A stretch of DNA of 64,000 bases. It comes from Patescibacteria group bacterium. GTDB lineage: Bacteria > Patescibacteriota > Minisyncoccia > UBA6257 > GWB1-50-10. Of this stretch, positions 4,435 through 63,702 are shown one piece after another. Below the pieces are notes generated by a model. It saw nothing but the letters and a program-made list of their open reading frames with translations. It was not told where the DNA came from and ran no database searches. The translations under genes were made by a program, and so were the position numbers. Location: contig JASEHZ010000001.1 in NCBI GenBank assembly GCA_030018585.1, positions 9,484 through 73,483 on the forward strand, given 5' to 3'. Positions within the stretch are counted from its first letter, which is position 1, and each line of letters starts with the position of its first letter.

Positions 4435-4779
4435 GTGCCGGTTGTAACCAGTATAAAAATAACACCGACCTATTCATATGAGTTGCCCTTTACCCTATCC
4501 CGCTGGTTAGATATTTTAATTGGACCAATATATTCTTGTATTTTCATATTTATTTTTACTAACAAGAAAATACAAAAAAATGAGGATTTAACTTTTAGTC
4601 TGGCTGTTGGTCTGGCTCTTGGTCTGGCTTTTGGTCTGGTTCTTGGTCTGGCTGTTGGTCTGGTTCTTGGTCTGGCTTTTGGTCTGACTGCTGGTCTGAC
4701 TGCTGGTCTGGCTACTCTAATAAAATTAATTTTTAGCAGCCGGTTTAAAAACTGGCTGTTGGCTGAAGATAAAAAATAA
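4435..4779 (+). CDS. Small membrane protein with glycine-zipper (GLxxGLxxGL...) repeat
   Basis: 114-aa ORF; N-terminal TM segment; middle encoded by ~10 tandem 12-nt repeats. Confidence 0.45.
   Translation: MPVVTSIKITPTYSYELPFTLSRWLDILIGPIYSCIFIFIFTNKKIQKNEDLTFSLAVGLALGLAFGLVLGLAVGLVLGLAFGLTAGLTAGLATLIKLIFSSRFKNWLLAEDKK
4597..4716 (+). repeat. Tandem 12-nt repeat (GGTCTGGCTNNT)x~10 inside CDS
   Basis: Direct reading: ggtctggctgtt ggtctggctctt ggtctggctttt ggtctggttctt ... ggtctgactgct ggtctggctact. Confidence 0.8.
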
Positions 4780-4905: not shown

Positions 4906-4981
4906 TGTCCACCCCCTGGGACTCGAACCCAGAGCCTCGCGCTTAAGAGGCGCTTGCTGCTACCAATTGAGCTAGGGGTGG
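4906..4981 (-). tRNA. tRNA-Lys (anticodon CTT), no encoded CCA
   Basis: Manual cloverleaf fold: acceptor CCACCCC/GGGGTGG, T-arm CTGGG-TTCGAGT-CCCAG, anticodon loop CTCTTAA. Confidence 0.65.
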
Positions 4982-5718
4982 CTATATTTCTAAGTTAACC
5001 GGTCGGTTAATTTTCGTCAACCGTACCCATCTTCTTTCGATATTTTTTACTTTCACATCTTCCCGTTCTAAAACTGCTTGCGTCCATCCGTATACTCGAT
5101 GGATATAATCGCCGCTTTTGGGGACCTCAACTCTTATCGTGCCGTAGTAAAGGTTATTTTTCTTATAGCCCTTACTGAATGGTTTGACATAACTCTTCCC
5201 AAAATTTTTTATTGGTATTCCGGTGAGGTCTGACCAAAATCTTTTTATTTCTTCTCTGTTTTGCTGCGGATAGATATTAAGTCGAGCTTTCAATGTGTTC
5301 CTCCTGATGTTAAATATTTTTTCAATCCAGTGAACCATAAACAATATGAGGCGTGGATCAGAATTCGTTACCTGAAACACATTTCCTTTCGTGCCCTCGC
5401 CCCAATACAATGCCGCTCCAAAGAGTTTGAATGTTTGTTCTGAAATGGGTATGGTGATTTCTCTTTTTGCGTGTTCAATAATTTTTCGTTGACTTCCCGT
5501 TTCCTTCGCTCCTTCTGTGATTGAGCTCCTCGGGAGAGGACTTGAATTTGTTTCGTATAAAGTCGCTCTCGATGTTCGGCTTTAAGGGGGATACTCTTTA
5601 ACCACAAACTTAATGTGCTTTTTGAAACCCCGATTATTTTCCGTATTTCATTGTAGCTTAATCCCTTTTTTCTTAGCGCTTCGGCCCCTTTCTTTAATTT
5701 AAGGTAATTATTTCCCAT
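4982..5718 (-). pseudogene. HTH-domain protein split over two frames (5368-5718 HTH N-terminus; 4982-5410 C-terminal domain of unknown type)
   Basis: N-terminal ORF has resolvase-like HTH GLSYNEIRKIIGVSKSTLSLWLK; downstream ORF overlaps by 43 nt in another frame; abuts tRNA-Lys. Confidence 0.35.
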
Positions 5719-10323: not shown

Positions 10324-10447
10324 AGGGCCTATGGTTCAGTGGTAGAACGCGGTCCCGCCCATACTTCGTATAGCGGGGTTGCGATTTGTAAATAAAAATC
10401 TTATCATTTTTATACAAATCGGGAACATTCGCACTGTGCCCCGCACC
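10324..10447 (+). ncRNA. Unresolved tRNA-like structured element: tRNA-like acceptor+D-arm, two hairpins, then GCCCCGC-ACCA end
   Basis: GGGCCTATGGTTCAGTGGTAGAAC is a canonical tRNA 5' third but no matching 3' acceptor strand exists; hairpin CCCGCCATAC-TTC-GTATAGCGGG and long hairpin GCGATTTGTAAATAAAAAT...ATTTTTATACAAATCG follow; GCGGGGT pairs with GCCCCGC before ACCA. Confidence 0.3.
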
Positions 10448-57080: not shown

Positions 57081-57758
57081 ATGGATTTTTTATTTGGTTC
57101 GTTTTTAACATGGTTGCCGTGGATTTTTTGGTGGTTAGTTTTTGTTATTATTGGATTTTTATATTTTTTTAGAAATAACAAAGAATTTATTTTAAACAAG
57201 TTGCCGAATTTTTTAAATTTTAATTTTTTAGTAAAAAGTTCGATCATTTTTCGAATTTTTTACGCGGCCCTTCTTACTTTTGGTCAATACTATATTTGGG
57301 CCCATGATTCATTCGGCAGAATTTTACTTAATTCACCGATAAAAGAATCTTTGCCCATATCTTTTATTTATCAGTTGCCGAAAATTTTTAATCAGCCGAT
57401 TGGCTATTTTTTTGTTTATTCTTGGGGGCGGTTTTGGCTTAACGTCATTGTTTCCATTGGCCTTGCTTTTCTTTTTTTATGGTTTTTGAAATTCTTGAAA
57501 AAAACCAAAGAAAGATTTTTTGAAGAAGGCGAAATTGAACTTGGGTTTTTGGGAATGTTGATTGTTGGTTGGCCGAATCAGTTGTTGTATATTGTTTTTG
57601 TCTTCGCGCTGGTTGTTGTTTTTTCAATTTTTCGTCAGCTTTTTCTTAAAAAACAATTAACGACTTTGGGCTGGCCGATTGTTTCTTCGGTTTTAATAAT
57701 ATTATTGTTTGGGAGTTGGCTTATTGAGTTTTTTTGTTTATCCTTATTTTTTGTTTGA
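57081..57758 (+). CDS. Polytopic membrane protein (weak resemblance to A24 prepilin peptidase)
   Basis: 225 aa, ~6 TM; GEIELGFLGMLIVGWP resembles PilD GDVKL..ALGAWLGW region. Confidence 0.3.
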   Translation: MDFLFGSFLTWLPWIFWWLVFVIIGFLYFFRNNKEFILNKLPNFLNFNFLVKSSIIFRIFYAALLTFGQYYIWAHDSFGRILLNSPIKESLPISFIYQLPKIFNQPIGYFFVYSWGRFWLNVIVSIGLAFLFLWFLKFLKKTKERFFEEGEIELGFLGMLIVGWPNQLLYIVFVFALVVVFSIFRQLFLKKQLTTLGWPIVSSVLIILLFGSWLIEFFCLSLFFV

Positions 57759-57845: not shown

Positions 57846-59600
57846 GTGAAGACCTCAAAACGAGAACAAAAAAAGAGGGCATTTTTTGATATTCGGAATG
57901 AAGAATCTAAAAATTGGTGGTTTGATTGGATAAATTCGAAAAGAACCCTTAATTTAAGAAAAAAATTTTATGAACGGAAACCTATTGTAGCGTTACTTTT
58001 TGTATTTTTGATTAGTAGCGGAATTTTTGTTTTGAGAAGCGCTTTAACCAAGGCGGAAGCTGCTGATTTTTATCCCAATACTTGTTTGGGTACTTGGCAA
58101 AATCCGCAAAATGCCCAAGGCGTTCCAGAAACATTCAGTTCTGCAACAATTTTTGATGAAAATAATTCCGCTGTTTTCGCATCGGGAAGCGAAAGGATTT
58201 TCTGTGGCAGTTTTGTCCCACCCGATTATGAAACAGAAGGTAGCATTACTAATGCGGGTCTGACATTGGTTTGGGATTTTGTGGGGGTTTCCAGCTCTCT
58301 CTCAATAACCGAGCCCATTATTGAAGAAACCAGCACTGCCACATCAAGCAGCCCTTCGGAATCAAATCCGAATCTTTTACCAGATGCCAGCTCAACACAG
58401 GAAAATTCATCGGGGACGAGTCTTTATTTTAATAAGAACAAACTTTCTCTATTGGATCTTTTTTTTAATAAAGTTTATGCCGAAGGGGAATTGATGGTTG
58501 ATACGACTACTATCCAGGTTGTGTCGGTTGATGATAATAAAGATATTACTTCATCAACTGTTCAGGAAAGTTTAGATTTAAATAGTAATGTCGCTACGGG
58601 TTCTGTTTCAGAGATTGAAAATTCTTCTCAAGCAACAAGTTCCTTTGATGAAACATCAATATTTTTGGAAACAGTTAATTTGGGAGAAGCGTCCACGACA
58701 GAAGCATCCACTACTGTTATTATCGCTTCGCCAATTATTGCGCCGTTGGAACCGATTAGTTCATCAAGCGAGCCGATTTTAAATGGAACAGATGCTACAA
58801 TCTCTTCAATAGTGGCCCCAGTTACTGTTTTAGAATTAATTGAGCCGGTAATTGACGAGAATTTTATTTTGATAAGTTATAGTTTTGATGGCCAGGAATG
58901 GATAGAACTTAAGAAGGCCAATCAGGATAATTGGCAGAATCTTACTGTTACTTTACCGGTTAAATCTTGGGACGAGTTAAAAAAAATCCAAATTAGCATT
59001 GAAAATATTCCGACTTCTCTTTCGCAGATACCCCAAATTTACCTTGACGGTATGTTTTTAGAAGCTCATTATGAATTGTCTCCGGAATTAGTTGTTGGCG
59101 GCGGCGTAGTTTTGGAATCTGATGATTCAAACGGAGTAGATTTATCAGAAGCAGATCAGTTAATAGAATCTAATTTATCTTCAAGTTCTGTGTCGCAGCT
59201 AGCTACCAAACCTCTTCCGCGGGTATCTATCAAATCAGATGGTTTTAATTTAGAAAGCGAACAAACTGATTTTATTTTAGACCCAAAAGCTCTTTATGGC
59301 TGTAGAATTGAACCCTTTTCGCAAATTATTAAAAAAAACAACCCCGCCCATTATTTAGTTAATTTAAAACAATCAAATAAAGAAACGCCGTTTAGAATCA
59401 CTTTGGGCGATTTGCCGTTGGGTGTCGTTGCTTCTTTTTCGTCTTCTGGTTTTGAAGAATCGGGGGCAGTCAGTCTGGATTTTTCCCTTGGCGATAACGC
59501 TTCTCAAGGTTCTTATAATATAGTGGCGGTTTATGAAGAATTGGGTAAAGACGGTTTAGTTTCTTCAAATATGTGCCAGCTCAACCTTATTATTGATTAG
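57846..59600 (+). CDS. Large Ser/Thr-rich secreted surface protein
   Basis: 584 aa, N-terminal TM/signal, low-complexity S/T tracts. Confidence 0.4.
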   Translation: MKTSKREQKKRAFFDIRNEESKNWWFDWINSKRTLNLRKKFYERKPIVALLFVFLISSGIFVLRSALTKAEAADFYPNTCLGTWQNPQNAQGVPETFSSATIFDENNSAVFASGSERIFCGSFVPPDYETEGSITNAGLTLVWDFVGVSSSLSITEPIIEETSTATSSSPSESNPNLLPDASSTQENSSGTSLYFNKNKLSLLDLFFNKVYAEGELMVDTTTIQVVSVDDNKDITSSTVQESLDLNSNVATGSVSEIENSSQATSSFDETSIFLETVNLGEASTTEASTTVIIASPIIAPLEPISSSSEPILNGTDATISSIVAPVTVLELIEPVIDENFILISYSFDGQEWIELKKANQDNWQNLTVTLPVKSWDELKKIQISIENIPTSLSQIPQIYLDGMFLEAHYELSPELVVGGGVVLESDDSNGVDLSEADQLIESNLSSSSVSQLATKPLPRVSIKSDGFNLESEQTDFILDPKALYGCRIEPFSQIIKKNNPAHYLVNLKQSNKETPFRITLGDLPLGVVASFSSSGFEESGAVSLDFSLGDNASQGSYNIVAVYEELGKDGLVSSNMCQLNLIID

Positions 59601-59712
59601 CTTTTACAAGAAGTGCCAAAGAGATTTAGAGATTTAGATTTCCGTTATTTTTAAAGAGAAAAAATATAATCTTTAAAGAGAAAAATATATAATAACGCAA
59701 AATTGCTAACAA

Positions 59713-59730
59713 GGTTCAATCAATTGAACC
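59713..59730. promoter_or_regulatory. Palindrome GGTTCAAT-CA-ATTGAACC (copy 1 of 3), 20 nt upstream of regulator gene
   Basis: 8-bp arms, 2-nt spacer; same site recurs at 60151-60168 and 60490-60507. Confidence 0.55.
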
Positions 59731-59749
59731 GTTATGGTATTGTCGAAAT

Positions 59750-60148
59750 ATGGTAAGAATCACTAAACGGGGTATCACTCAAGAGTTAAATAAACAACTT
59801 GTTGATTTTTTATTGAGCGAAATAAAAAAGATTAAGACGAGTGATGGTTTGGATAAATTTATGAGCCGATTATTGACTTCCGAAGAACAGATAATGTTCA
59901 AGAAGCGTCTGGCAATTAATCTTTTCCTTGGTGAGAAAAAAAGAGTCAGAGATATCAGAAAAATTTTAGATGTTTCTAAGGCAACTATTGGTTTTGTCAG
60001 GCGAGGCTTGGTGAATCTTCCTAAAAAAGAGACAAGGACAGAGAAAATAATTGCCAAAAAAGATTCCAAAAAATCAGCACACAAATCTCGATATCCATAT
60101 CCGACTTACAAAGGTAGGGGTCGGTGGCGGTTTCTCGACCGCTTTTAG
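59750..60148 (+). CDS. TrpR-like YerC/YecD-family DNA-binding protein
   Basis: 132 aa; RLAINLFLGEKKRVRDIRKILDVSKATIGFVRRGL HTH region characteristic of YerC/YecD. Confidence 0.55.
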   Translation: MVRITKRGITQELNKQLVDFLLSEIKKIKTSDGLDKFMSRLLTSEEQIMFKKRLAINLFLGEKKRVRDIRKILDVSKATIGFVRRGLVNLPKKETRTEKIIAKKDSKKSAHKSRYPYPTYKGRGRWRFLDRF

Positions 60149-60150
60149 AA

Positions 60151-60168
60151 GGTTCAATTGATTGAACC
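60151..60168. promoter_or_regulatory. Palindrome GGTTCAAT-TG-ATTGAACC (copy 2), abutting the regulator stop codon
   Basis: Exact 18-mer. Confidence 0.55.
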
Positions 60169-60489
60169 TTGGAGGCGTTGTCTGAATATTTAATATTAGA
60201 TGTATATGAATAGATATAAAAGTAGATACAAAAACGGATATATGCGAATAGAACGTAAATAGATATTATTTGGATAAATGCGAGTGCTTTAATAGATATG
60301 AAAATGGATGAACAGGGGGGTGAACAGATATAAGTAGATGTTATTCAAGCGAGTATGTACAAGCAGGTACGTGTGAATATATGTTTTCTACAAAAATTGA
60401 AACGGGAAATTATAGAGTGTTATAATCTAGTAAAGCTCCGTGGTTTTTTTGATTTTTTTGACTGGCTGGGAATTCAGAAAGAAATGAAA

Positions 60490-60507
60490 GGTTCAATTGA
60501 TTGAACC
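60490..60507. promoter_or_regulatory. Palindrome GGTTCAAT-TG-ATTGAACC (copy 3), ~80 nt upstream of surface-protein gene 60590
   Basis: Exact 18-mer. Confidence 0.55.
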
Positions 60508-60589
60508 TCGGGGATATTTGATAAATATACGAGGTTTTTGAAATTTTTAAAAAAATTCCTTCAGAGTTTTTAAAACCATTTTAATATTA

Positions 60590-62731
60590 ATGAAAAAAAC
60601 ACTAAAATTCATATTAATTTTTTCACTGGTTTTGGGATGGGTTTTTTCTGGCTGGCCAAAGATTTGGCAAAATCCGAGAATTCCGCCGGAAATTCAAATA
60701 GCACAAGCAGCAACACTTGAATATGTTGGAGGGGCATCTGGCACGGGAACCGGAGCAACATATAGCGTTTCTCTTACCGGCCTTACAGGTGGCATTGGAA
60801 GTTCTGCGGCGGCAGGTGACCTTGTCATCGTTGTTACCGGATGGGCGAGTGCAGCCGATGGTAATCCTGGCGTTACCACACCCACTGGCTATACCGAAGT
60901 GTATGACCTTTACAAAAGTGACACTAGAGATGTTAATATGAGTGTCAACTGGAAGATTATGGGAGGAACTCCGGATACTTCTGTTACGGTAAGCGGCCAC
61001 AACAACGCGGCAAACGGAGGCGCGACTGTAGTTCATGTCTGGCGCGGAGTTGACTCGACAACGCCGATGGACGTTACTCCTCCTACTGGTGTCACCGCTG
61101 CCAACGCCTCGTCGCCAGATAGTCCGAGCATCACGCCAGTTACGAGCGGCGCGTATGTTTTATCCGTTGGTATGGGAACAGGGGATACCACACCACTGAC
61201 TAAAACTGCGCCGACTGGCTATGGCAATGCGCTATCTGTTGCGGGCAACGGCTCCACCATGTCGATTATCGCGAATATCGCGTCTAAGGTATGGAGCGGC
61301 AGCGGAGCGGAAGACCCTGCGGCATGGACCGGCGGCGAAACAAGCACTTCAGACTCGTGGGCCGCCGGCACTTTAGCAATACGGCCAGCGCCGTCTTTTA
61401 CCCAATCTGCTTACAGATTTTTTAATAATATAGATTCAACTGATGTTGGTTCAGTTTTGGCGAATCAAGATACGTCGGCAACGCTAAGTTCGAGTGGTGC
61501 TGAATTTCGTTTGCGTATGCTTTTACATATCGGCACAAGTCGGCTTGATGCTTCCGGCCAGCAATTCAAACTCCAGTTCGCCCAGATGTCCGGCACCTGT
61601 GATACGGTTTTTTCCGGCGAGTCATATGCTGATGTTACTGCGGCAACAGTTATTGCTTATAACAATAATACTACGCCGGCTGATGGCGATAATTTAACTG
61701 CCAATGCCAATGATCCGATTCACGGCGCAGATACTATTGTTAATCAGGATTATGAAGAATTAAATAATTTCACCAATTCTGTTGCGGCAATTCCTTCTGG
61801 TCAAGACGGTAAGTGGGATTTTTCTTTAAAGGACAATGGTGCTTCAGCAGAAACTGCTTATTGTTTTCGTGCAGTTTTATCGGACGGTACCTTATTTACT
61901 GCAGGTGGCGGTAGTTATAGCGTGGTTCCGGAAATTACTACGGCTTCGGCTAATTCAGCGCCAACAGTTTCTAATGTTGTTTTAAATAATTTGAACCCCA
62001 TTACTCTTACGCCGAACACCACAACTGCTGTTTTAGTTGTGGCGTCAACAACCGATTCTAACAACAATATTAGTTATGCTACTGGAACGATTTATCGGAC
62101 TGGCATTGGAGCAACCTGCGCGGCTGATAATTTAAATTGTTATCAGTTAGCAAGTTCAAGCTGCAGTTTTTCGGGCAGTACGAGTACTGTTACTTGTTCG
62201 GCTAATATCTGGTATTTTGCGCAAGCAACTGATTCTTCCTCTTCTTTTTCCGGCGACACCTGGTCAGGCAAGATTGCGGTTACTGACAGCGGCGGGCTTT
62301 CCGGCAGTTCTTCCACGGCGTCGCAGGTTGAGTTAAATACACTTCTTGCTATTGATGTTACGTCGGGAACAATTGATTACGGGACTTTAGTGCCGAATAC
62401 AAATACGGGTTCGACAAATCAAACTTCAACCGTAAAAAATGTTGGCAATTCTTCAACTACGCTTCAGCTTTCTGCTTCGCAGACATTAACTTCCGGTTCA
62501 AATTCAATTACCACAAGTTCTCAGCATTACGCAACTTCATCGTTTACTTTTGGCGGCAGTGAAGCGCAATTGAGCGATACGCCGACGACTGTAACAGGAT
62601 TTTCATTAACATCGCCCACAAGCACGAACGCGGTCTCAAGCATTGTTTATTGGGGCTTGAATGTCCCGGCTAGTAAGCCAACTGGCACTTATAGCGGGAT
62701 TAATGTTTTTACAGCGGTTTTTGTTCAGTAA
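60590..62731 (+). CDS. Giant Ser/Thr/Gly-rich surface protein (paralog A)
   Basis: 713 aa, N-terminal TM; C-terminal ~170 aa nearly identical to 62785 ORF. Confidence 0.45.
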   Translation: MKKTLKFILIFSLVLGWVFSGWPKIWQNPRIPPEIQIAQAATLEYVGGASGTGTGATYSVSLTGLTGGIGSSAAAGDLVIVVTGWASAADGNPGVTTPTGYTEVYDLYKSDTRDVNMSVNWKIMGGTPDTSVTVSGHNNAANGGATVVHVWRGVDSTTPMDVTPPTGVTAANASSPDSPSITPVTSGAYVLSVGMGTGDTTPLTKTAPTGYGNALSVAGNGSTMSIIANIASKVWSGSGAEDPAAWTGGETSTSDSWAAGTLAIRPAPSFTQSAYRFFNNIDSTDVGSVLANQDTSATLSSSGAEFRLRMLLHIGTSRLDASGQQFKLQFAQMSGTCDTVFSGESYADVTAATVIAYNNNTTPADGDNLTANANDPIHGADTIVNQDYEELNNFTNSVAAIPSGQDGKWDFSLKDNGASAETAYCFRAVLSDGTLFTAGGGSYSVVPEITTASANSAPTVSNVVLNNLNPITLTPNTTTAVLVVASTTDSNNNISYATGTIYRTGIGATCAADNLNCYQLASSSCSFSGSTSTVTCSANIWYFAQATDSSSSFSGDTWSGKIAVTDSGGLSGSSSTASQVELNTLLAIDVTSGTIDYGTLVPNTNTGSTNQTSTVKNVGNSSTTLQLSASQTLTSGSNSITTSSQHYATSSFTFGGSEAQLSDTPTTVTGFSLTSPTSTNAVSSIVYWGLNVPASKPTGTYSGINVFTAVFVQ

Positions 62732-62784: not shown

Positions 62785-63702
62785 ATGATAAAGACAATTT
62801 TGAGAATTTTTGGTGTTTTATTAATGACAGTTGCTGTTGGTGGTAGTTTGCTTTTAGTTTTACAAACCGTGATGGCGGTTAATATTTCAAGTTCAGTTAT
62901 TGTTGGCAATGCTGCGCCAACAGTTTCAGCTGTTTCAATAAATGGCGGTAATCCTATTACTTTAACTGCTAATGCGACAACTTCAGTGGTGGTTAATTTT
63001 ACTGTAACTGATAATAATGGCTGTTCCGATGTTTTTATGGGCGGTAATACCACAACCACTTCTTACCGGTCTGGTGTTGGCGGAAGTTGTACGGCTAGTA
63101 ATTTAAATTGTTATACCGTGACTTCCGTAACTAATAATTGTGCGGGCGGCAATAATGCTAATGCGACAGCGACTTTTGAAATTTATTATTTTGCTAATGC
63201 TACCGACGCCAGTTCTTCGTATTCGGCTCAAAATTGGCTGGCTCAAGTTTATGCCCGCGATGCTTCATCAGCAACCGGTACCGCTACTTCCACGGGCGTA
63301 GAATTAAATACTTTAACAGCCATTAATGTCACGACTTCTTCAATTAATTACGGCACTTTAGCGGCAGGCAGCAATACTGGCGCAACTAATCAAGTAGCAA
63401 CAAGTACTAATGCCGGCAATTCCTCAACCACACTTCAGCTTTCTTCTTCGCAAACTTTAACTTCCGGTTCTAATACGATTGCCACAAGTTCTCAGCATTA
63501 CGCGACTTCAACATTTAGTTTCGGCGGTAGTGAAGCGCAATTGAGCGGCACGCCGACGACTGTAACAGGATTTTCATTAACATCGCCCACAAGCACGAAC
63601 GCGGTAAGCCAGGCAGTATTTTGGGGTCTTGAAATCCCGGGCGGAACAGCAACCGGAACTTATAGCGGCGTTAATGTGTTTTCATCACTTTTCCAGCCGT
63701 AG
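62785..63702 (+). CDS. Ser/Thr-rich surface protein (paralog B, matches C-terminal half of 60590 ORF)
   Basis: 305 aa; shares AANSAPTVS..., NLNCY..., ELNTL.AI.VTS..I.YGTL and SQHYATS.F.FGGSEAQLS.TPTTVTGFSLTSPTSTNAVS blocks. Confidence 0.45.
   Translation: MIKTILRIFGVLLMTVAVGGSLLLVLQTVMAVNISSSVIVGNAAPTVSAVSINGGNPITLTANATTSVVVNFTVTDNNGCSDVFMGGNTTTTSYRSGVGGSCTASNLNCYTVTSVTNNCAGGNNANATATFEIYYFANATDASSSYSAQNWLAQVYARDASSATGTATSTGVELNTLTAINVTTSSINYGTLAAGSNTGATNQVATSTNAGNSSTTLQLSSSQTLTSGSNTIATSSQHYATSTFSFGGSEAQLSGTPTTVTGFSLTSPTSTNAVSQAVFWGLEIPGGTATGTYSGVNVFSSLFQP

What the first reader, a model, noticed from the sequence alone, without database searches (positions are those of the whole stretch)
59601..60589. 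YerC/TrpR-like regulator bracketed by three identical 8-2-8 palindromes and followed by a TAGATA-like repeat field, between giant surface-protein genes
GGTTCAAT-NN-ATTGAACC occurs at 59713 (20 nt upstream of the regulator ATG, central CA), at 60151 (touching its stop codon, central TG) and at 60490 (~80 nt upstream of the 713-aa surface protein). A perfect 18-mer recurring three times within 800 nt is unlikely by chance. It is probably the regulator's operator, arranged for autoregulation plus control of the surface-protein gene, and possibly for DNA looping. The 300-nt spacer at 60180-60480 contains about eight irregularly spaced (A/G)TAGATA(T)/GGATA motifs. The upstream region has two tandem direct repeats (AGAGATTT x2-3 at 59630-59650; TTAAAGAGAAAAAaTATAAT x2 at 59650-59693). 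Together these look like a dedicated switch for surface-protein expression.
Basis: partly seen in the sequence, partly recalled or inferred. Interest (0 to 1): 0.7.

Follow-up and report, generated by a model that had tools for sequence, protein, structure and literature searches.

The report
TrpR-family autoregulator bracketed by its operators
A small Trp-repressor-like DNA-binding protein of an uncultured Patescibacteria (CPR) bacterium sits between copies of its own 18-bp palindromic binding site; relatives in 22 other lineages show the same layout with lineage-specific sites, so this is a conserved self-regulating module and not a dedicated surface-protein switch.

Summary
GGTTCAAT-NN-ATTGAACC occurs exactly three times in 64 kb, all around the 132-aa ORF 59750-60148 (Pfam Trp_repressor). 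The decisive evidence is comparative. In 22 other lineages (29-64% identity, Parcubacteria-type CPR), every homologue has its own palindrome both just before its ATG and at or just after its stop codon, often in pairs or arrays. The closest relative (61-64% identity) keeps the identical 18-mer. Half-site positions 4-5 co-vary with one recognition-helix residue (Ala78 here, inferred equivalent of E. coli TrpR Ala80): Thr goes with GTCC, Ala with GTTT or GTTC, Ser with GTAC, Asn with GTAT. So the palindromes are almost certainly the protein's cognate operators. Site 1 overlaps a conserved extended -10 (TGgTATTGT, leaderless start), which implies negative autoregulation. The "surface-protein switch" reading is only weakly supported. 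Neighbouring genes differ between lineages (gatCAB/ABC transporter, ligA, convergent comF), and downstream sites sometimes lie between two stop codons. The TAGATA field is present but not statistically exceptional. The closest known system is HisR (B. subtilis YerC) and TrpR. This protein falls below both NCBIfam cut-offs and carries an extra conserved C-terminal tail. I rate it a new variant of a known kind, of moderate interest.

The parts
59713..59730 (.). Operator site 1, GGTTCAATCAATTGAACC (8-2-8 palindrome, centre CA). It lies at about -37 to -20 relative to the proposed leaderless start.
   Evidence: Exact match. The identical 18-mer sits at the equivalent position upstream of the closest homologue, L058. 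Cognate palindromes lie upstream of the ATG in all 22 other lineages.
59735..59743 (+). Predicted extended -10 promoter element TGgTATTGT. Its last T is 7 nt before the A of the ATG, which implies a leaderless or near-leaderless mRNA.
   Evidence: Aligns with TGgTATAAT in L058; both operator and -10 are conserved while surrounding bases differ. Several relatives have TATAAT or TACAAT 6-7 nt before the ATG. This is an inference; no transcript data exist.
59750..60148 (+). 132-aa TrpR-family (YerC/HisR-like) HTH protein. The recognition helix is DVSKATIGFVRRGL (Ala78 is the specificity position). It has a conserved basic/aromatic C-terminal tail, YPTYKGRGRWRFL.
   Evidence: Pfam PF01371 32.5 bits against 27. 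PDB profile hits 3KOR, 3G1C and 3FRW at about 5e-6. AF2 model has pLDDT above 90 for residues 11-85, and Foldseek top hits are HisR-like structures and TrpR. The tail is conserved across 55 homologues.
60149..60170 (.). Operator site 2 (core 60151-60168, centre TG), extended to the 22-nt palindrome AAGGTTCAATTGATTGAACCTT that abuts the TAG stop codon.
   Evidence: A cognate palindrome lies at or within about 80 nt after the stop codon in all 22 other lineages.
60489..60508 (.). Operator site 3 (core 60490-60507, centre TG). It is 82 nt upstream of the 713-aa ORF and about 57 nt downstream of the start predicted from the 60397-60426 promoter-like site.
   Evidence: A second downstream copy 50-340 bp beyond the first also occurs in L001, L040, L061, L063, L064 and L066.
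60397..60426 (+). Strong sigma-70-like promoter match TTGAAA-18-TGtTATAAT lying between sites 2 and 3. It is a candidate promoter of the 713-aa gene.
   Evidence: 11 of 12 consensus positions plus TG. This is a consensus match only.
60196..60343 (+). Field of ten same-strand NN[AG]GAT[AG] motifs (the TAGATA/GGATA field). Its significance is weak and its function unknown.
   Evidence: positions; enrichment only in the top ~9% of windows; no periodicity, p = 0.72; only a 12-nt x1.9 tandem; not a decayed copy of the regulator gene; no Rfam match.
59620..59693 (+). Two short tandem repeats upstream of site 1: AGAGATTT x2.4 (59620-59638), and a 22-nt unit x2 (59650-59693) in which each copy carries a TATAAT.
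   Evidence: (family D9). They may be alternative upstream promoters; this was not tested.
60590..62731 (+). 713-aa S/T-rich protein with an N-terminal hydrophobic segment. It is a possible, unproven, additional target of the regulator.
   Evidence: No Pfam hit. It shares a 57%-identical C-terminal ~260 aa with the next ORF, 62785-63702.

Best explanation
The 132-aa protein is a dimeric helix-turn-helix repressor of the TrpR family, closest to HisR/YerC. The three 18-bp 8-2-8 palindromes are its cognate operators.

Site 1 covers about -37 to -20 of the gene's own extended -10 promoter (TGgTATTGT). That promoter probably starts a leaderless mRNA at the ATG, so bound protein would exclude RNA polymerase. 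This gives negative autoregulation.

Sites 2 and 3 are auxiliary operators of the same module. A copy at or just after the stop codon is a universal feature of this protein family. I consider three roles most likely for them:
- cooperating with site 1, through higher local occupancy or looping;
- blocking transcription that leaves or enters the gene (roadblock or insulator);
- in this genome, placing the adjacent 713-aa gene under the same control, because site 3 lies between a strong promoter-like site and that gene.

Shown by sequence: the sites, the TrpR fold and family, the conserved layout, and the co-variation between protein and site. Inferred: actual binding, the sign of regulation, the leaderless start, the role of the downstream sites, and any effector.

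My probabilities for the separate steps:
- cognate operator, about 0.9;
- autorepression, about 0.75;
- control of the 713-aa gene, about 0.35-0.4;
- looping, about 0.3.
For: 1. Three exact copies, and no other in 64 kb.
2. The protein is in Pfam PF01371. Its nearest solved relatives are HisR-type proteins and E. coli TrpR, by sequence and by fold.
3. In 22 other lineages, each homologue carries its own palindrome upstream of the ATG and at or after the stop. The lineages were reached through; the sites are shown. This includes the most distant member examined (29% identity, Sungbacteria), which has an 11-4-11 palindrome.
4. The closest relative (61-64% identity, helix SKATICFVRRGL) has the identical core GGTTCAATCAATTGAACC at both ends of its gene.
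5. Half-site positions 4-5 track the residue after DVS[RKP]. Thr goes with CC in 9 of 9 lineages, Ala with TT or TC, Ser with AC, Asn with AT, Arg with TT. Concordant lineage pairs number 144 of 153, and 0 of 100,000 permutations reached this. A tree built with the helix masked shows about five independent co-switches. The Thr -> GTCC rule, derived first, then held for two lineages fetched afterwards, L062 and L063.
6. That residue aligns with the Ala of HisR 'STATIS'. By inference from the HisR paper's statement that Ala80, Thr81 and Arg84 are conserved in HisR, it corresponds to TrpR Ala80, a DNA-contacting residue (PMC9413887).
7. Geometry matches the family. HisR and TrpR operators are 20-bp palindromes, with HisR consensus cacTTTA-N6-TAAAgtg, and about half of hisR genes are preceded by their own site (PMC9413887). 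Relatives here read GTTTA-N6-TAAAC; the window reads GTTCA-N6-TGAAC.
8. Operator plus TGGTAT(T/A)(G/A)T is conserved between the window and L058, 7 nt before the ATG.
9. In relatives, cognate sites also occur right in front of other genes, for example a tandem pair 10 nt before gatC in L062 and L037. The protein family therefore can regulate neighbouring genes.
Against: - There is no binding or expression data.
- The source genome could not be scanned, so the number of sites genome-wide is unknown.
- Symmetry extends well beyond what a dimer should read, and with different sequences in different copies. Examples are 34-nt perfect palindromes in L058 and 30-42 nt ones in L047, L055 and L057. 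Extensions of 5 bp or more occur in 26% of sites against 0.25% in a null. This points to an added hairpin or cruciform requirement, or to a palindrome-perfecting mutational process, neither of which simple repression explains.
- L046 has two different perfect palindromes, one at each end of its gene.
- Downstream sites between convergent genes (L001, L038, L045) have no promoter to repress.
- Upstream and downstream sites show no conserved helical phasing.
- Site 3 is 82 nt from the 713-aa ORF, and its relation to the real promoter is unknown.
Confidence: 0.78

Rival explanations
1. This is the first reader's model: a dedicated switch in which the regulator's main job is to control the neighbouring surface-protein gene, with the three sites arranged for looping around its promoter.
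For: Site 3 lies 82 nt upstream of the 713-aa ORF. Sites 2 and 3 flank a strong promoter-like element at 60397-60426. Relatives have cognate sites immediately upstream of other genes: gatC in L062 and L037, and a TTGACA-17-TATAAC promoter in L063. L065 also lies next to a 2660-aa protein with no Pfam hit.
Against: The module occurs with unrelated neighbours in 22 other lineages, and multiple downstream copies are the norm whatever the neighbour is. Downstream copies can lie between convergent stop codons. The closest relative with the same 18-mer sits next to ligA, not next to a surface-protein gene. The TAGATA field is not above chance.
Confidence: 0.25
2. The palindromes act mainly as nucleic-acid structures: RNA hairpins that terminate or stabilise transcripts, or DNA cruciforms that insulate the gene. 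On this view they are not protein operators.
For: The palindromes sit at gene ends, often on or abutting the stop codon. In relatives the symmetry extends far beyond the core, with non-conserved, often G/C-rich arms. Predicted RNA hairpins there reach -25 to -39 kcal/mol. The tandem sites in L062 form perfect 40-nt super-palindromes.
Against: Structure alone does not explain three things: why the core sequence is identical at both ends of one gene, why it is conserved between the window and L058, and why it co-varies with a recognition-helix residue. The window's hairpins are weak (-8 to -10 kcal/mol, z about -2 to -3) and have no U-tract on the + strand. Imperfect tandem sites in L038, L042 and L045 keep the outer GTTTA/TAAAC but lose inner pairing, which is a half-site pattern and not a stem pattern. 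In many loci the upstream copy lies upstream of the -10 and so would not be in the mRNA. A combined role, operator plus hairpin, is not excluded.
Confidence: 0.1
3. This is a REP/RAYT-like or cassette-like selfish element: a gene flanked by its own species-specific palindromic repeats, which are also dispersed through the genome.
For: The gene is flanked by cognate palindromes that differ between lineages, as with RAYT and REP (own knowledge). Neighbourhoods vary. A few extra copies occur 2-8 kb away in L037, L062 and L063.
Against: The protein is only an HTH of the TrpR fold, with no HUH or other catalytic domain. Copy number is low: 3 in 64 kb here, all local, and no distant copies in L042/L043, L047, L051, L064 or L065. 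Partial synteny with ligA, the ABC transporter and gatCAB across lineages argues for vertical inheritance.
Confidence: 0.04
4. This is an invertible or excisable DNA switch. Site 1 (centre CA) is the exact inverted repeat of sites 2 and 3 (centre TG), as at the crossover sites of serine recombinases.
For: Arms of 21 nt are 100% complementary between 59710-59730 and 60151-60171 (pair I1). The asymmetric central dinucleotide gives the sites an orientation.
Against: The adjacent ORFs checked (57081-57758, 57846-59600, 60590-62731, 62785-63702) gave no recombinase-domain hit. In relatives the central dinucleotide is often itself palindromic (TA, CG), and CA/TG orientations are mixed within a locus. 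The flanks of all three copies are in direct register, not inverted (family D1).
Confidence: 0.02
5. This is a replication-related locus, either an origin or an RTP/Tus-like terminator whose gene lies beside its own sites. The GATA-rich spacer would then be a field of DnaA-box-like repeats.
For: RTP and Tus are autoregulated from Ter sites beside their genes (own knowledge). Some relatives lie near parAB, topA or relA. The reverse complement of TTTGGATAA resembles a DnaA box (my own reading).
Against: GC skew is positive across the whole window, with no switch at 60 kb. Genes on both sides of most relatives are co-oriented. Only one or two 8-of-9 DnaA-box-like matches exist, by my own reading.
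Confidence: 0.03

Closest known systems
HisR (B. subtilis YerC), the histidine repressor of the TrpR family in Firmicutes and other phyla (PMC9413887)
   Same: It is a small TrpR-fold HTH protein and gives the best hits among solved structures (3KOR, 3G1C, 3FRW). Its operator is a palindrome of about 20 bp with the same geometry: HisR has cTTTA-N6-TAAAg, CPR relatives have GTTTA-N6-TAAAC, and the window has GTTCA-N6-TGAAC. A site in front of its own gene is frequent (about half of hisR genes). The recognition helices are similar: S-T-A-T-I-S-R-V-K-R-S-L against S-K-A-T-I-G-F-V-R-R-G-L.
   Different: - It scores below the NCBIfam YerC/YecD cut-off (22.5 bits against 42.2; relatives 26-35).
- It is about 130 aa, with a conserved C-terminal tail FP.YKGKGRWRFL that HisR lacks.
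- The acidic helix-2 cluster proposed to bind histidine is not conserved in the alignment.
- No his genes lie near any locus. Extra sites were seen at gatC, an ABC transporter and other genes.
- Operators also follow the stop codon in every lineage. The HisR study did not report this, having searched only -350 to +50.
E. coli TrpR and its trp, aroH and trpR operators
   Same: It has the same fold (1TRR and 1TRO among the Foldseek hits). It binds as a dimer to a palindromic operator, TGTAcTnGTnnACnAgTACA, and represses its own gene (for the motif; autoregulation is own knowledge). The specificity residue found here corresponds, by inference, to the DNA-contacting Ala80. TrpR dimers are also known to bind in tandem (the title of 1TRR).
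   Different: It scores 16 bits on the TrpR equivalog model against a cut-off of 67. The operator sequence and the register of the half-sites differ. There are no trp genes nearby. The tryptophan-binding residues were not assessed.
Auxiliary-operator systems that repress through several sites (lac O1/O2/O3, gal OE/OI, lambda OL/OR)
   Same: Several identical or near-identical operators lie hundreds of bp apart around a promoter. Here, sites 2 and 3 lie on either side of a promoter-like element (own knowledge for the known systems).
   Different: Here the operators bracket the regulator's own coding sequence end to end in every lineage. Looping is not demonstrated, and no conserved helical phasing was found.
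REP sequences with their RAYT genes (REPIN-RAYT)
   Same: The gene is flanked by its own lineage-specific palindromes, and a few additional copies occur elsewhere (the REP/RAYT facts are own knowledge).
   Different: There is no transposase-like domain, the copy number is low, and the protein is an HTH repressor-type fold.

Membership tests
TrpR family (Pfam PF01371, Trp_repressor) | Sequence matches the family HMM above the gathering threshold | tested here: met
   32.5 bits against a cut-off of 27, residues 18-93. All homologues carry precomputed PF01371.
TrpR family (Pfam PF01371, Trp_repressor) | All-helical TrpR-like fold with a C-terminal HTH | tested here: met
   The AF2 model has pLDDT above 90 for residues 11-85 and five helices. 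Foldseek top hits are 3FRW, 3G1C and 3KOR (probability 1.00, TM 0.64-0.72 by target), then 1TRR and 1TRO. E-values are modest (2e-3 and weaker), and the model is a monomer.
TrpR family (Pfam PF01371, Trp_repressor) | Binds a palindromic operator of about 18-20 bp as a dimer | not testable with these tools
   The sequence evidence is strong: conserved cognate palindromes and residue-base co-variation. Binding itself needs EMSA or footprinting.
HisR / YerC-YecD (NCBIfam TIGR02531) | Score at or above the curated equivalog cut-off | tested here: not met
   22.5 bits against 42.2 for the window protein; 35.3 and 26.1 for two relatives (P0009, P0005); no TIGR02531 hit was listed for P0013.
HisR / YerC-YecD (NCBIfam TIGR02531) | Operator consensus cacTTTA-N6-TAAAgtg | tested here: inconclusive
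   Relatives L038, L042 and L045 read GTTTA-N6-TAAAC, and L067 reads CTTTGAT-TA-ATCAAAG. The window reads GTTCA-N6-TGAAC, and most lineages read GTCCA-N6-TGGAC (compared).
HisR / YerC-YecD (NCBIfam TIGR02531) | Regulon made of histidine biosynthesis or uptake genes, with histidine as corepressor | tested here: not met
   No his genes appear among the ORFs scanned in the window, nor in the sequence held (up to 20 kb) around relatives. The extra sites found lie at gatC, after a tRNA gene, near a Bro-N gene and after argS. Whole genomes and the effector could not be tested.
HisR / YerC-YecD (NCBIfam TIGR02531) | Short protein (<100 aa) ending soon after the HTH | tested here: not met
   The protein is 132 aa with a conserved tail, FP.YKGKGRWRFL (W126 invariant; P118, G122, R125 and F128 at 90% or more). 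The tail has low model confidence.
TrpR proper (NCBIfam TIGR01321) | Score at or above the equivalog cut-off | tested here: not met
   16.1 bits against 67.25.
REP / RAYT elements | Flanked gene encodes an HUH (Y1) transposase, and the repeats are dispersed in high copy number | tested here: not met
   Only TrpR/HTH matches were found. There are three copies in 64 kb, all at the gene.
Invertible DNA switch (site-specific recombinase with inverted crossover sites) | A recombinase gene in or beside the segment, and an asymmetric core kept in inverted orientation | tested here: not met
   The adjacent ORFs scanned gave no recombinase-domain hit. Central dinucleotides are TA or CG in many relatives, and orientations are mixed.
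Intrinsic (Rho-independent) terminator | G+C-rich hairpin followed by a U-tract on the transcribed strand | tested here: not met
   There is no + strand terminator-like site at sites 1-3. The only match is on the minus strand at site 3. The hairpins are -8 to -10 kcal/mol.

The most novel reading that the evidence does not exclude
The operator-gene-operator bracket, together with palindromes that are often perfected far beyond a dimer's footprint and an invariant basic/aromatic C-terminal tail, may mark a function beyond ordinary repression. This would apply to a large CPR-specific branch of the TrpR family (960 clusters at 50% identity with E <= 1e-10). One candidate function is a protein-dependent transcriptional insulator or terminator that seals a gene at both ends, possibly by recognising extruded hairpins or cruciforms. 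Another is an amino-acid-sensing regulator that couples nutrient status to tRNA-dependent amidation (gatCAB) and cell-surface genes, in organisms that lack most biosynthetic operons.
Probability: 0.2. Interest if true: 0.7.

Novelty: new variant of a known kind. Interest (0 to 1): 0.5.

Why it matters
Almost nothing is known about transcriptional control in CPR/Patescibacteria, which cannot be grown alone. This locus, with its relatives, gives three things.

- **A readable regulator-operator pair.** The family is large (960 clusters at 50% identity with E <= 1e-10). A one-residue specificity rule links the protein to its site: position 78 here, the inferred equivalent of TrpR Ala80, tracks half-site bases 4-5. 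With this rule, regulons could be predicted directly from metagenome-assembled genomes.
- **An unexplained, universal feature.** The gene's coding sequence is bracketed by its own operators, and the palindromes are often extended beyond the core. I found no report of this for TrpR or HisR in the literature I could search. It can be tested with simple in vitro and heterologous-reporter experiments.
- **Candidate targets.** These are gatCAB and an ABC transporter in several lineages, and a secreted S/T-rich protein here. They could show what these reduced bacteria sense.

If it turns out to be only a conventional autorepressor, it is an ordinary new subfamily of a well-known family.

Tried and rejected
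1. **Genome-wide scan for the 18-mer.** A scan of genome contigs gave 27 single hits in unrelated taxa. By my own estimate, about 17 are expected by chance in 596 Gb. One hit is in a Candidatus Jorgensenbacteria genome (L020:164-181), next to parA and a short distance upstream of a minus-strand ORF that is not a TrpR gene. No TrpR homologue lies in the 8 kb held. This is unresolved.
2. **Extending the source contig.** A look-up of the window protein failed: it is not on record.
3. **Spacer 60169-60489 as a decayed second copy of the regulator gene.** Alignment scores equal those of shuffles (z of 0.1 and -0.9). Rejected.
4. **TAGATA field as a phased array.** No periodicity was found (best period 11.5, p = 0.72). 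The 5-mer enrichment is only within the top ~9% of windows. TRF sees only a 12-nt x1.9 repeat.
5. **Known RNA family in 59550-60650.** None was found.
6. **Origin or terminus.** GC skew does not switch.
7. **Helical phasing between upstream and downstream operators across 21 lineages.** Not significant at 10-11 bp.
8. **Invertible-segment reading of the CA/TG centres.** Not supported.
9. **Literature.** No paper links TrpR-like proteins to Patescibacteria or CPR regulation.
10. **Third-operator flanks as promoters.** All three sites are followed by TTGAAC-N17-AATAT(G/T/A). However, the -10-like hexamers are poor, and for site 1 the hexamer overlaps the start codon. I treat this as evidence that the copies share a common origin, not as evidence of promoters.
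Full report
**1. The observation**

The window holds exactly three copies of GGTTCAAT-NN-ATTGAACC, at 59713-59730 (centre CA), 60151-60168 (TG) and 60490-60507 (TG). Allowing three mismatches adds only one match, at 5319. Dinucleotide-preserving shuffles give 0.48 matches on average, and none of 100 shuffles reached four.

The copies surround ORF 59750-60148, which is 132 aa. Site 1 ends 19 nt before the ATG. Site 2, as the 22-nt palindrome AAGGTTCAATTGATTGAACCTT, abuts the TAG stop. Site 3 ends 82 nt before the next ORF at 60590.

The three copies also align in direct register over 41 nt (family D1). By my own count, 8 of 21 flank columns are identical in all three, where base composition predicts about 1.6.

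The two small tandem repeats upstream are real.

The TAGATA/GGATA motifs exist: ten same-strand NN[AG]GAT[AG] at 60196-60343. They are not exceptional, however. A 5-mer count of 6 is reached in about 9% of equal-sized windows. The spacing is not periodic (p = 0.72). The flanking proteins are 584 and 713 aa with no Pfam hit passing threshold, so 'giant' is an overstatement.

**2. What the protein is**

- It passes the Pfam Trp_repressor threshold (32.5 bits against 27). A source names it 'Trp family transcriptional regulator' from a Patescibacteria MAG.
- A profile of the family finds the HisR-type structures 3KOR, 3G1C and 3FRW (E about 5e-6).
- An AlphaFold model built from 55 homologues is confident for residues 11-85. 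It matches the same structures and E. coli TrpR.
- It falls below the NCBIfam cut-offs for YerC/YecD (22.5 against 42.2) and for TrpR (16.1 against 67.25).
- It carries a conserved C-terminal tail, FP.YKGKGRWRFL, that HisR lacks.
- The family is large: 960 clusters at 50% identity with E <= 1e-10. Named members are Wolfebacteria, Liptonbacteria, Sungbacteria and 'Patescibacteria group'.

**3. Comparative evidence**

I fetched the genomic context of homologues at 29-64% identity. In all 22 other lineages, the gene has its own palindrome shortly upstream of the ATG and again at, or within about 80 nt after, the stop codon. The sites often form tandem pairs or triples, or arrays of up to seven.

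Examples:

| Locus | Palindrome |
|---|---|
| L001 | GGTTTAAT-TA-ATTAAACC |
| L005, L037 | TGTCCAAT-CA-ATTGGACA |
| L045 | AGTTTAGT-CA-ACTAAACT |
| L047 | AAGTACAAT-TA-ATTGTACTT |
| L056 | AGTATAAT-TA-ATTATACT |
| L061, L063 | TGTCCAGT-TA-ACTGGACA |
| L064 | GTGTCATT-TA-AATGACAC |
| L066 | GCTACGTT-TA-AACGTAGC |
| L067 | CTTTGAT-TA-ATCAAAG |
| L065 (Sungbacteria) | 11-4-11 palindrome |

The closest relative is L058 from a Liptonbacteria MAG. Its recognition helix differs at one residue. It has exactly the window's 18-mer at both ends of its gene.

**4. Protein-DNA co-variation**

Half-site positions 4-5 follow the residue after DVS[RKP] in the recognition helix:

| Residue | Half-site | Lineages |
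|---|---|---|
| Thr | GTCC | 9 of 9 |
| Ala | GTTT or GTTC | 5 |
| Ser | GTAC | 2 |
| Asn | GTAT | 1 |
| Arg | GTTT | 1 |

Concordant lineage pairs number 144 of 153, and no permutation out of 100,000 reached this. A neighbour-joining tree with the helix masked shows about five independent joint switches. The permutation test ignores phylogeny.

I derived the Thr -> GTCC rule from the first loci. It then held for two lineages fetched afterwards, L062 and L063.

The residue aligns with the Ala of HisR 'STATIS'. The HisR paper states that TrpR Ala80, Thr81 and Arg84 are conserved in HisR and that Ala80 contacts DNA (PMC9413887). From this I infer that the residue corresponds to TrpR Ala80.

That paper also reports that B. 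subtilis YerC is the histidine repressor HisR. It gives the HisR operator as a 20-bp palindrome with consensus cacTTTA-N6-TAAAgtg, compared with TGTAcTnGTnnACnAgTACA for TrpR. About half of hisR genes are preceded by their own site. The CPR sites share this geometry: GTTTA-N6-TAAAC in L038, L042 and L045, and GTTCA-N6-TGAAC in the window.

I conclude that the palindromes are the cognate operators of the adjacent protein.

**5. How it probably works here**

Aligning the window with L058 shows that the operator and a TGGTAT(T/A)(G/A)T element are conserved while the bases around them differ. In the window this is TGgTATTGT at 59735-59743. Its last T is 7 nt before the A of the ATG. This suggests an extended -10 promoter that produces a leaderless mRNA. 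Several relatives likewise have TATAAT or TACAAT 6-7 nt before the ATG.

Site 1 would then span about -37 to -20, and bound repressor would exclude RNA polymerase. That is classical negative autoregulation. It is inferred, not shown.

**6. The downstream sites**

Their universal presence right after the stop codon ties them to the regulator gene itself, not to whatever lies next.

- In L001, L038 and L045 they lie between two convergent stop codons, the other belonging to a comF-like gene. There is no promoter there to control.
- Elsewhere the next gene is gatC, an ABC transporter, PolX or a metallo-beta-lactamase-fold protein.
- The family does have additional targets. L062 and L037 carry a tandem operator pair 10 nt before the gatC ATG, about 2 kb from the regulator. 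L062 and L063 have further perfect sites 1.5-7.6 kb away.
- In the window no distant site exists in the 60 kb upstream.

Site 3 lies between a strong promoter-like element (TTGAAA-18-TGtTATAAT at 60397-60426) and the 713-aa gene. Control of that gene is therefore plausible (I put it at about 0.35-0.4) but unproven. Looping or roadblock roles for sites 2 and 3 are reasonable and untested. Upstream-downstream distances show no conserved helical phase.

**7. An unexplained feature**

In many relatives the symmetry runs well beyond a dimer's footprint, and the arms differ between copies of the same locus.

- L058 has two 34-nt perfect palindromes with arms ACCACGAT and CTTAGCGC.
- L047, L055 and L057 have upstream palindromes of 30-42 nt capped with G/C.
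- L062 has 40-nt super-palindromes built from two mirrored sites.

These are shown. Extensions of 5 bp or more occur in 26% of 42 sites, against 0.25% at random positions. Predicted hairpins in these relatives reach -25 to -39 kcal/mol, whereas the window's are -8 to -10.

This suggests an added hairpin or cruciform role, or a palindrome-perfecting mutational process. I cannot distinguish the two. It keeps a structural contribution alive as a partial rival, and it is the basis of the novel reading.

**8. Rivals rejected or down-weighted**

- **Pure hairpin or terminator.** There is no U-tract on the + strand. Structure alone cannot explain the identical core sequences or the co-variation.
- **REP/RAYT-like element.** There is no catalytic domain, and copy number is low.
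- **Invertible switch.** The adjacent ORFs scanned gave no recombinase-domain hit. Centres are TA or CG in relatives, and the flanks are in direct register.
- **Origin or terminus.** GC skew does not switch.
- **Spacer as a decayed gene copy.** Alignment scores equal those of shuffles.
- **Known RNA family.** None was found.

**9. Comparison and novelty**

This locus works like HisR and TrpR: a dimeric HTH repressor, a palindromic operator and autoregulation. It belongs to the Pfam TrpR family. It is not an equivalog of HisR/YerC or of TrpR. It differs in three ways: a conserved C-terminal tail, no link to his or trp genes in the loci seen, and operators that bracket its own coding sequence.

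I found no paper on TrpR-like regulators in CPR. I classify it as a new variant of a known kind, with interest of about 0.5.

**10. Limits**

- The genome-wide distribution of the 18-mer in the source organism could not be determined.
- All functional statements rest on sequence inference.
- Promoter assignments are consensus matches.

Noticed in passing
L041-L044 (e.g. L042:10001-10390): The TrpR-like homologue in four independent assemblies from one study has an in-frame TAG at codon 71. The reading frame continues through the recognition helix and the conserved tail (…EIS*LLDVSCATISFVKGGL…GKGRWQFLYRF). It could be a pseudogene, a case of readthrough, or stop-codon recoding.
   Followed up: no
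L020:164-181 (Candidatus Jorgensenbacteria GW2011_GWA1_48_11): The exact window 18-mer, GGTTCAATCAATTGAACC, occurs once in another Parcubacteria genome. It sits beside a parA-like gene and a short distance upstream of a minus-strand ORF that is not a TrpR gene. No TrpR homologue lies in the 8 kb held. By my estimate a chance hit in such a small clade is unlikely, so it may be a regulon site of an orthologous regulator.
   Followed up: partly
L062:12316-12354 and L037:12432-12468: A tandem pair of cognate operators lies 10 nt upstream of the gatC start codon, about 2 kb from the regulator gene. This suggests that gatCAB (tRNA-dependent amidotransferase) is a target of this regulator family in some lineages. 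ligA, an ABC transporter and gatCAB recur as neighbours, which recalls the yerC region of B. subtilis (own recollection, not checked).
   Followed up: partly
L058:2430-2463 and 2843-2876; L055:471-512; L062:9922-9961 and 10395-10434: These operators are embedded in perfect palindromes of 34-42 nt. The outer arms differ between copies at one locus, and predicted hairpins are -25 to -39 kcal/mol. In L062, two imperfect sites mirror each other to form a perfect 40-nt palindrome.
   Followed up: partly
window 60590-62731 and 62785-63702: The 713-aa and 305-aa S/T-rich proteins share a C-terminal region of about 260 aa at 57% identity (E = 2e-75). Both have N-terminal hydrophobic segments and no Pfam match. 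They appear to be a paralogous pair of secreted or surface proteins of unknown family.
   Followed up: partly
window 4598-4713: A 12-nt tandem repeat, GTCTGGCTGTTG x9.7 (also read as a 48-nt unit x2.4), lies inside ORF 4435-4779, next to tRNA-Lys (4907-4981).
   Followed up: no
window 25239-27110 and 22396-24042: The window encodes a VirD4/TraG-type coupling protein (TrwB_AAD_bind, T4SS-DNA_transf) and a Lamin Tail Domain protein. T4SS-pilin genes also lie near the TrpR-like gene in L066 and L067.
   Followed up: no
window 60444-60461 and 60431-60457 / 60522-60548: TTTTTTTGA x2 lies just downstream of the 60397-60426 promoter-like site. A 27-nt segment following that site recurs at 74% identity after operator site 3 (TAAAGCTCCGTGGTTTTTTTGATTTTT against TAAATATACGAGGTTTTTGAAATTTTT).
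   Followed up: no
L066:9174-11633: Unusually long non-coding stretches for a CPR genome (about 830 and 1240 bp) flank the TrpR-like gene. They hold seven copies of its palindrome GCTACGTTTAAACGTAGC, plus other G/C-rich hairpins. parB, relA and topA are nearby.
   Followed up: no
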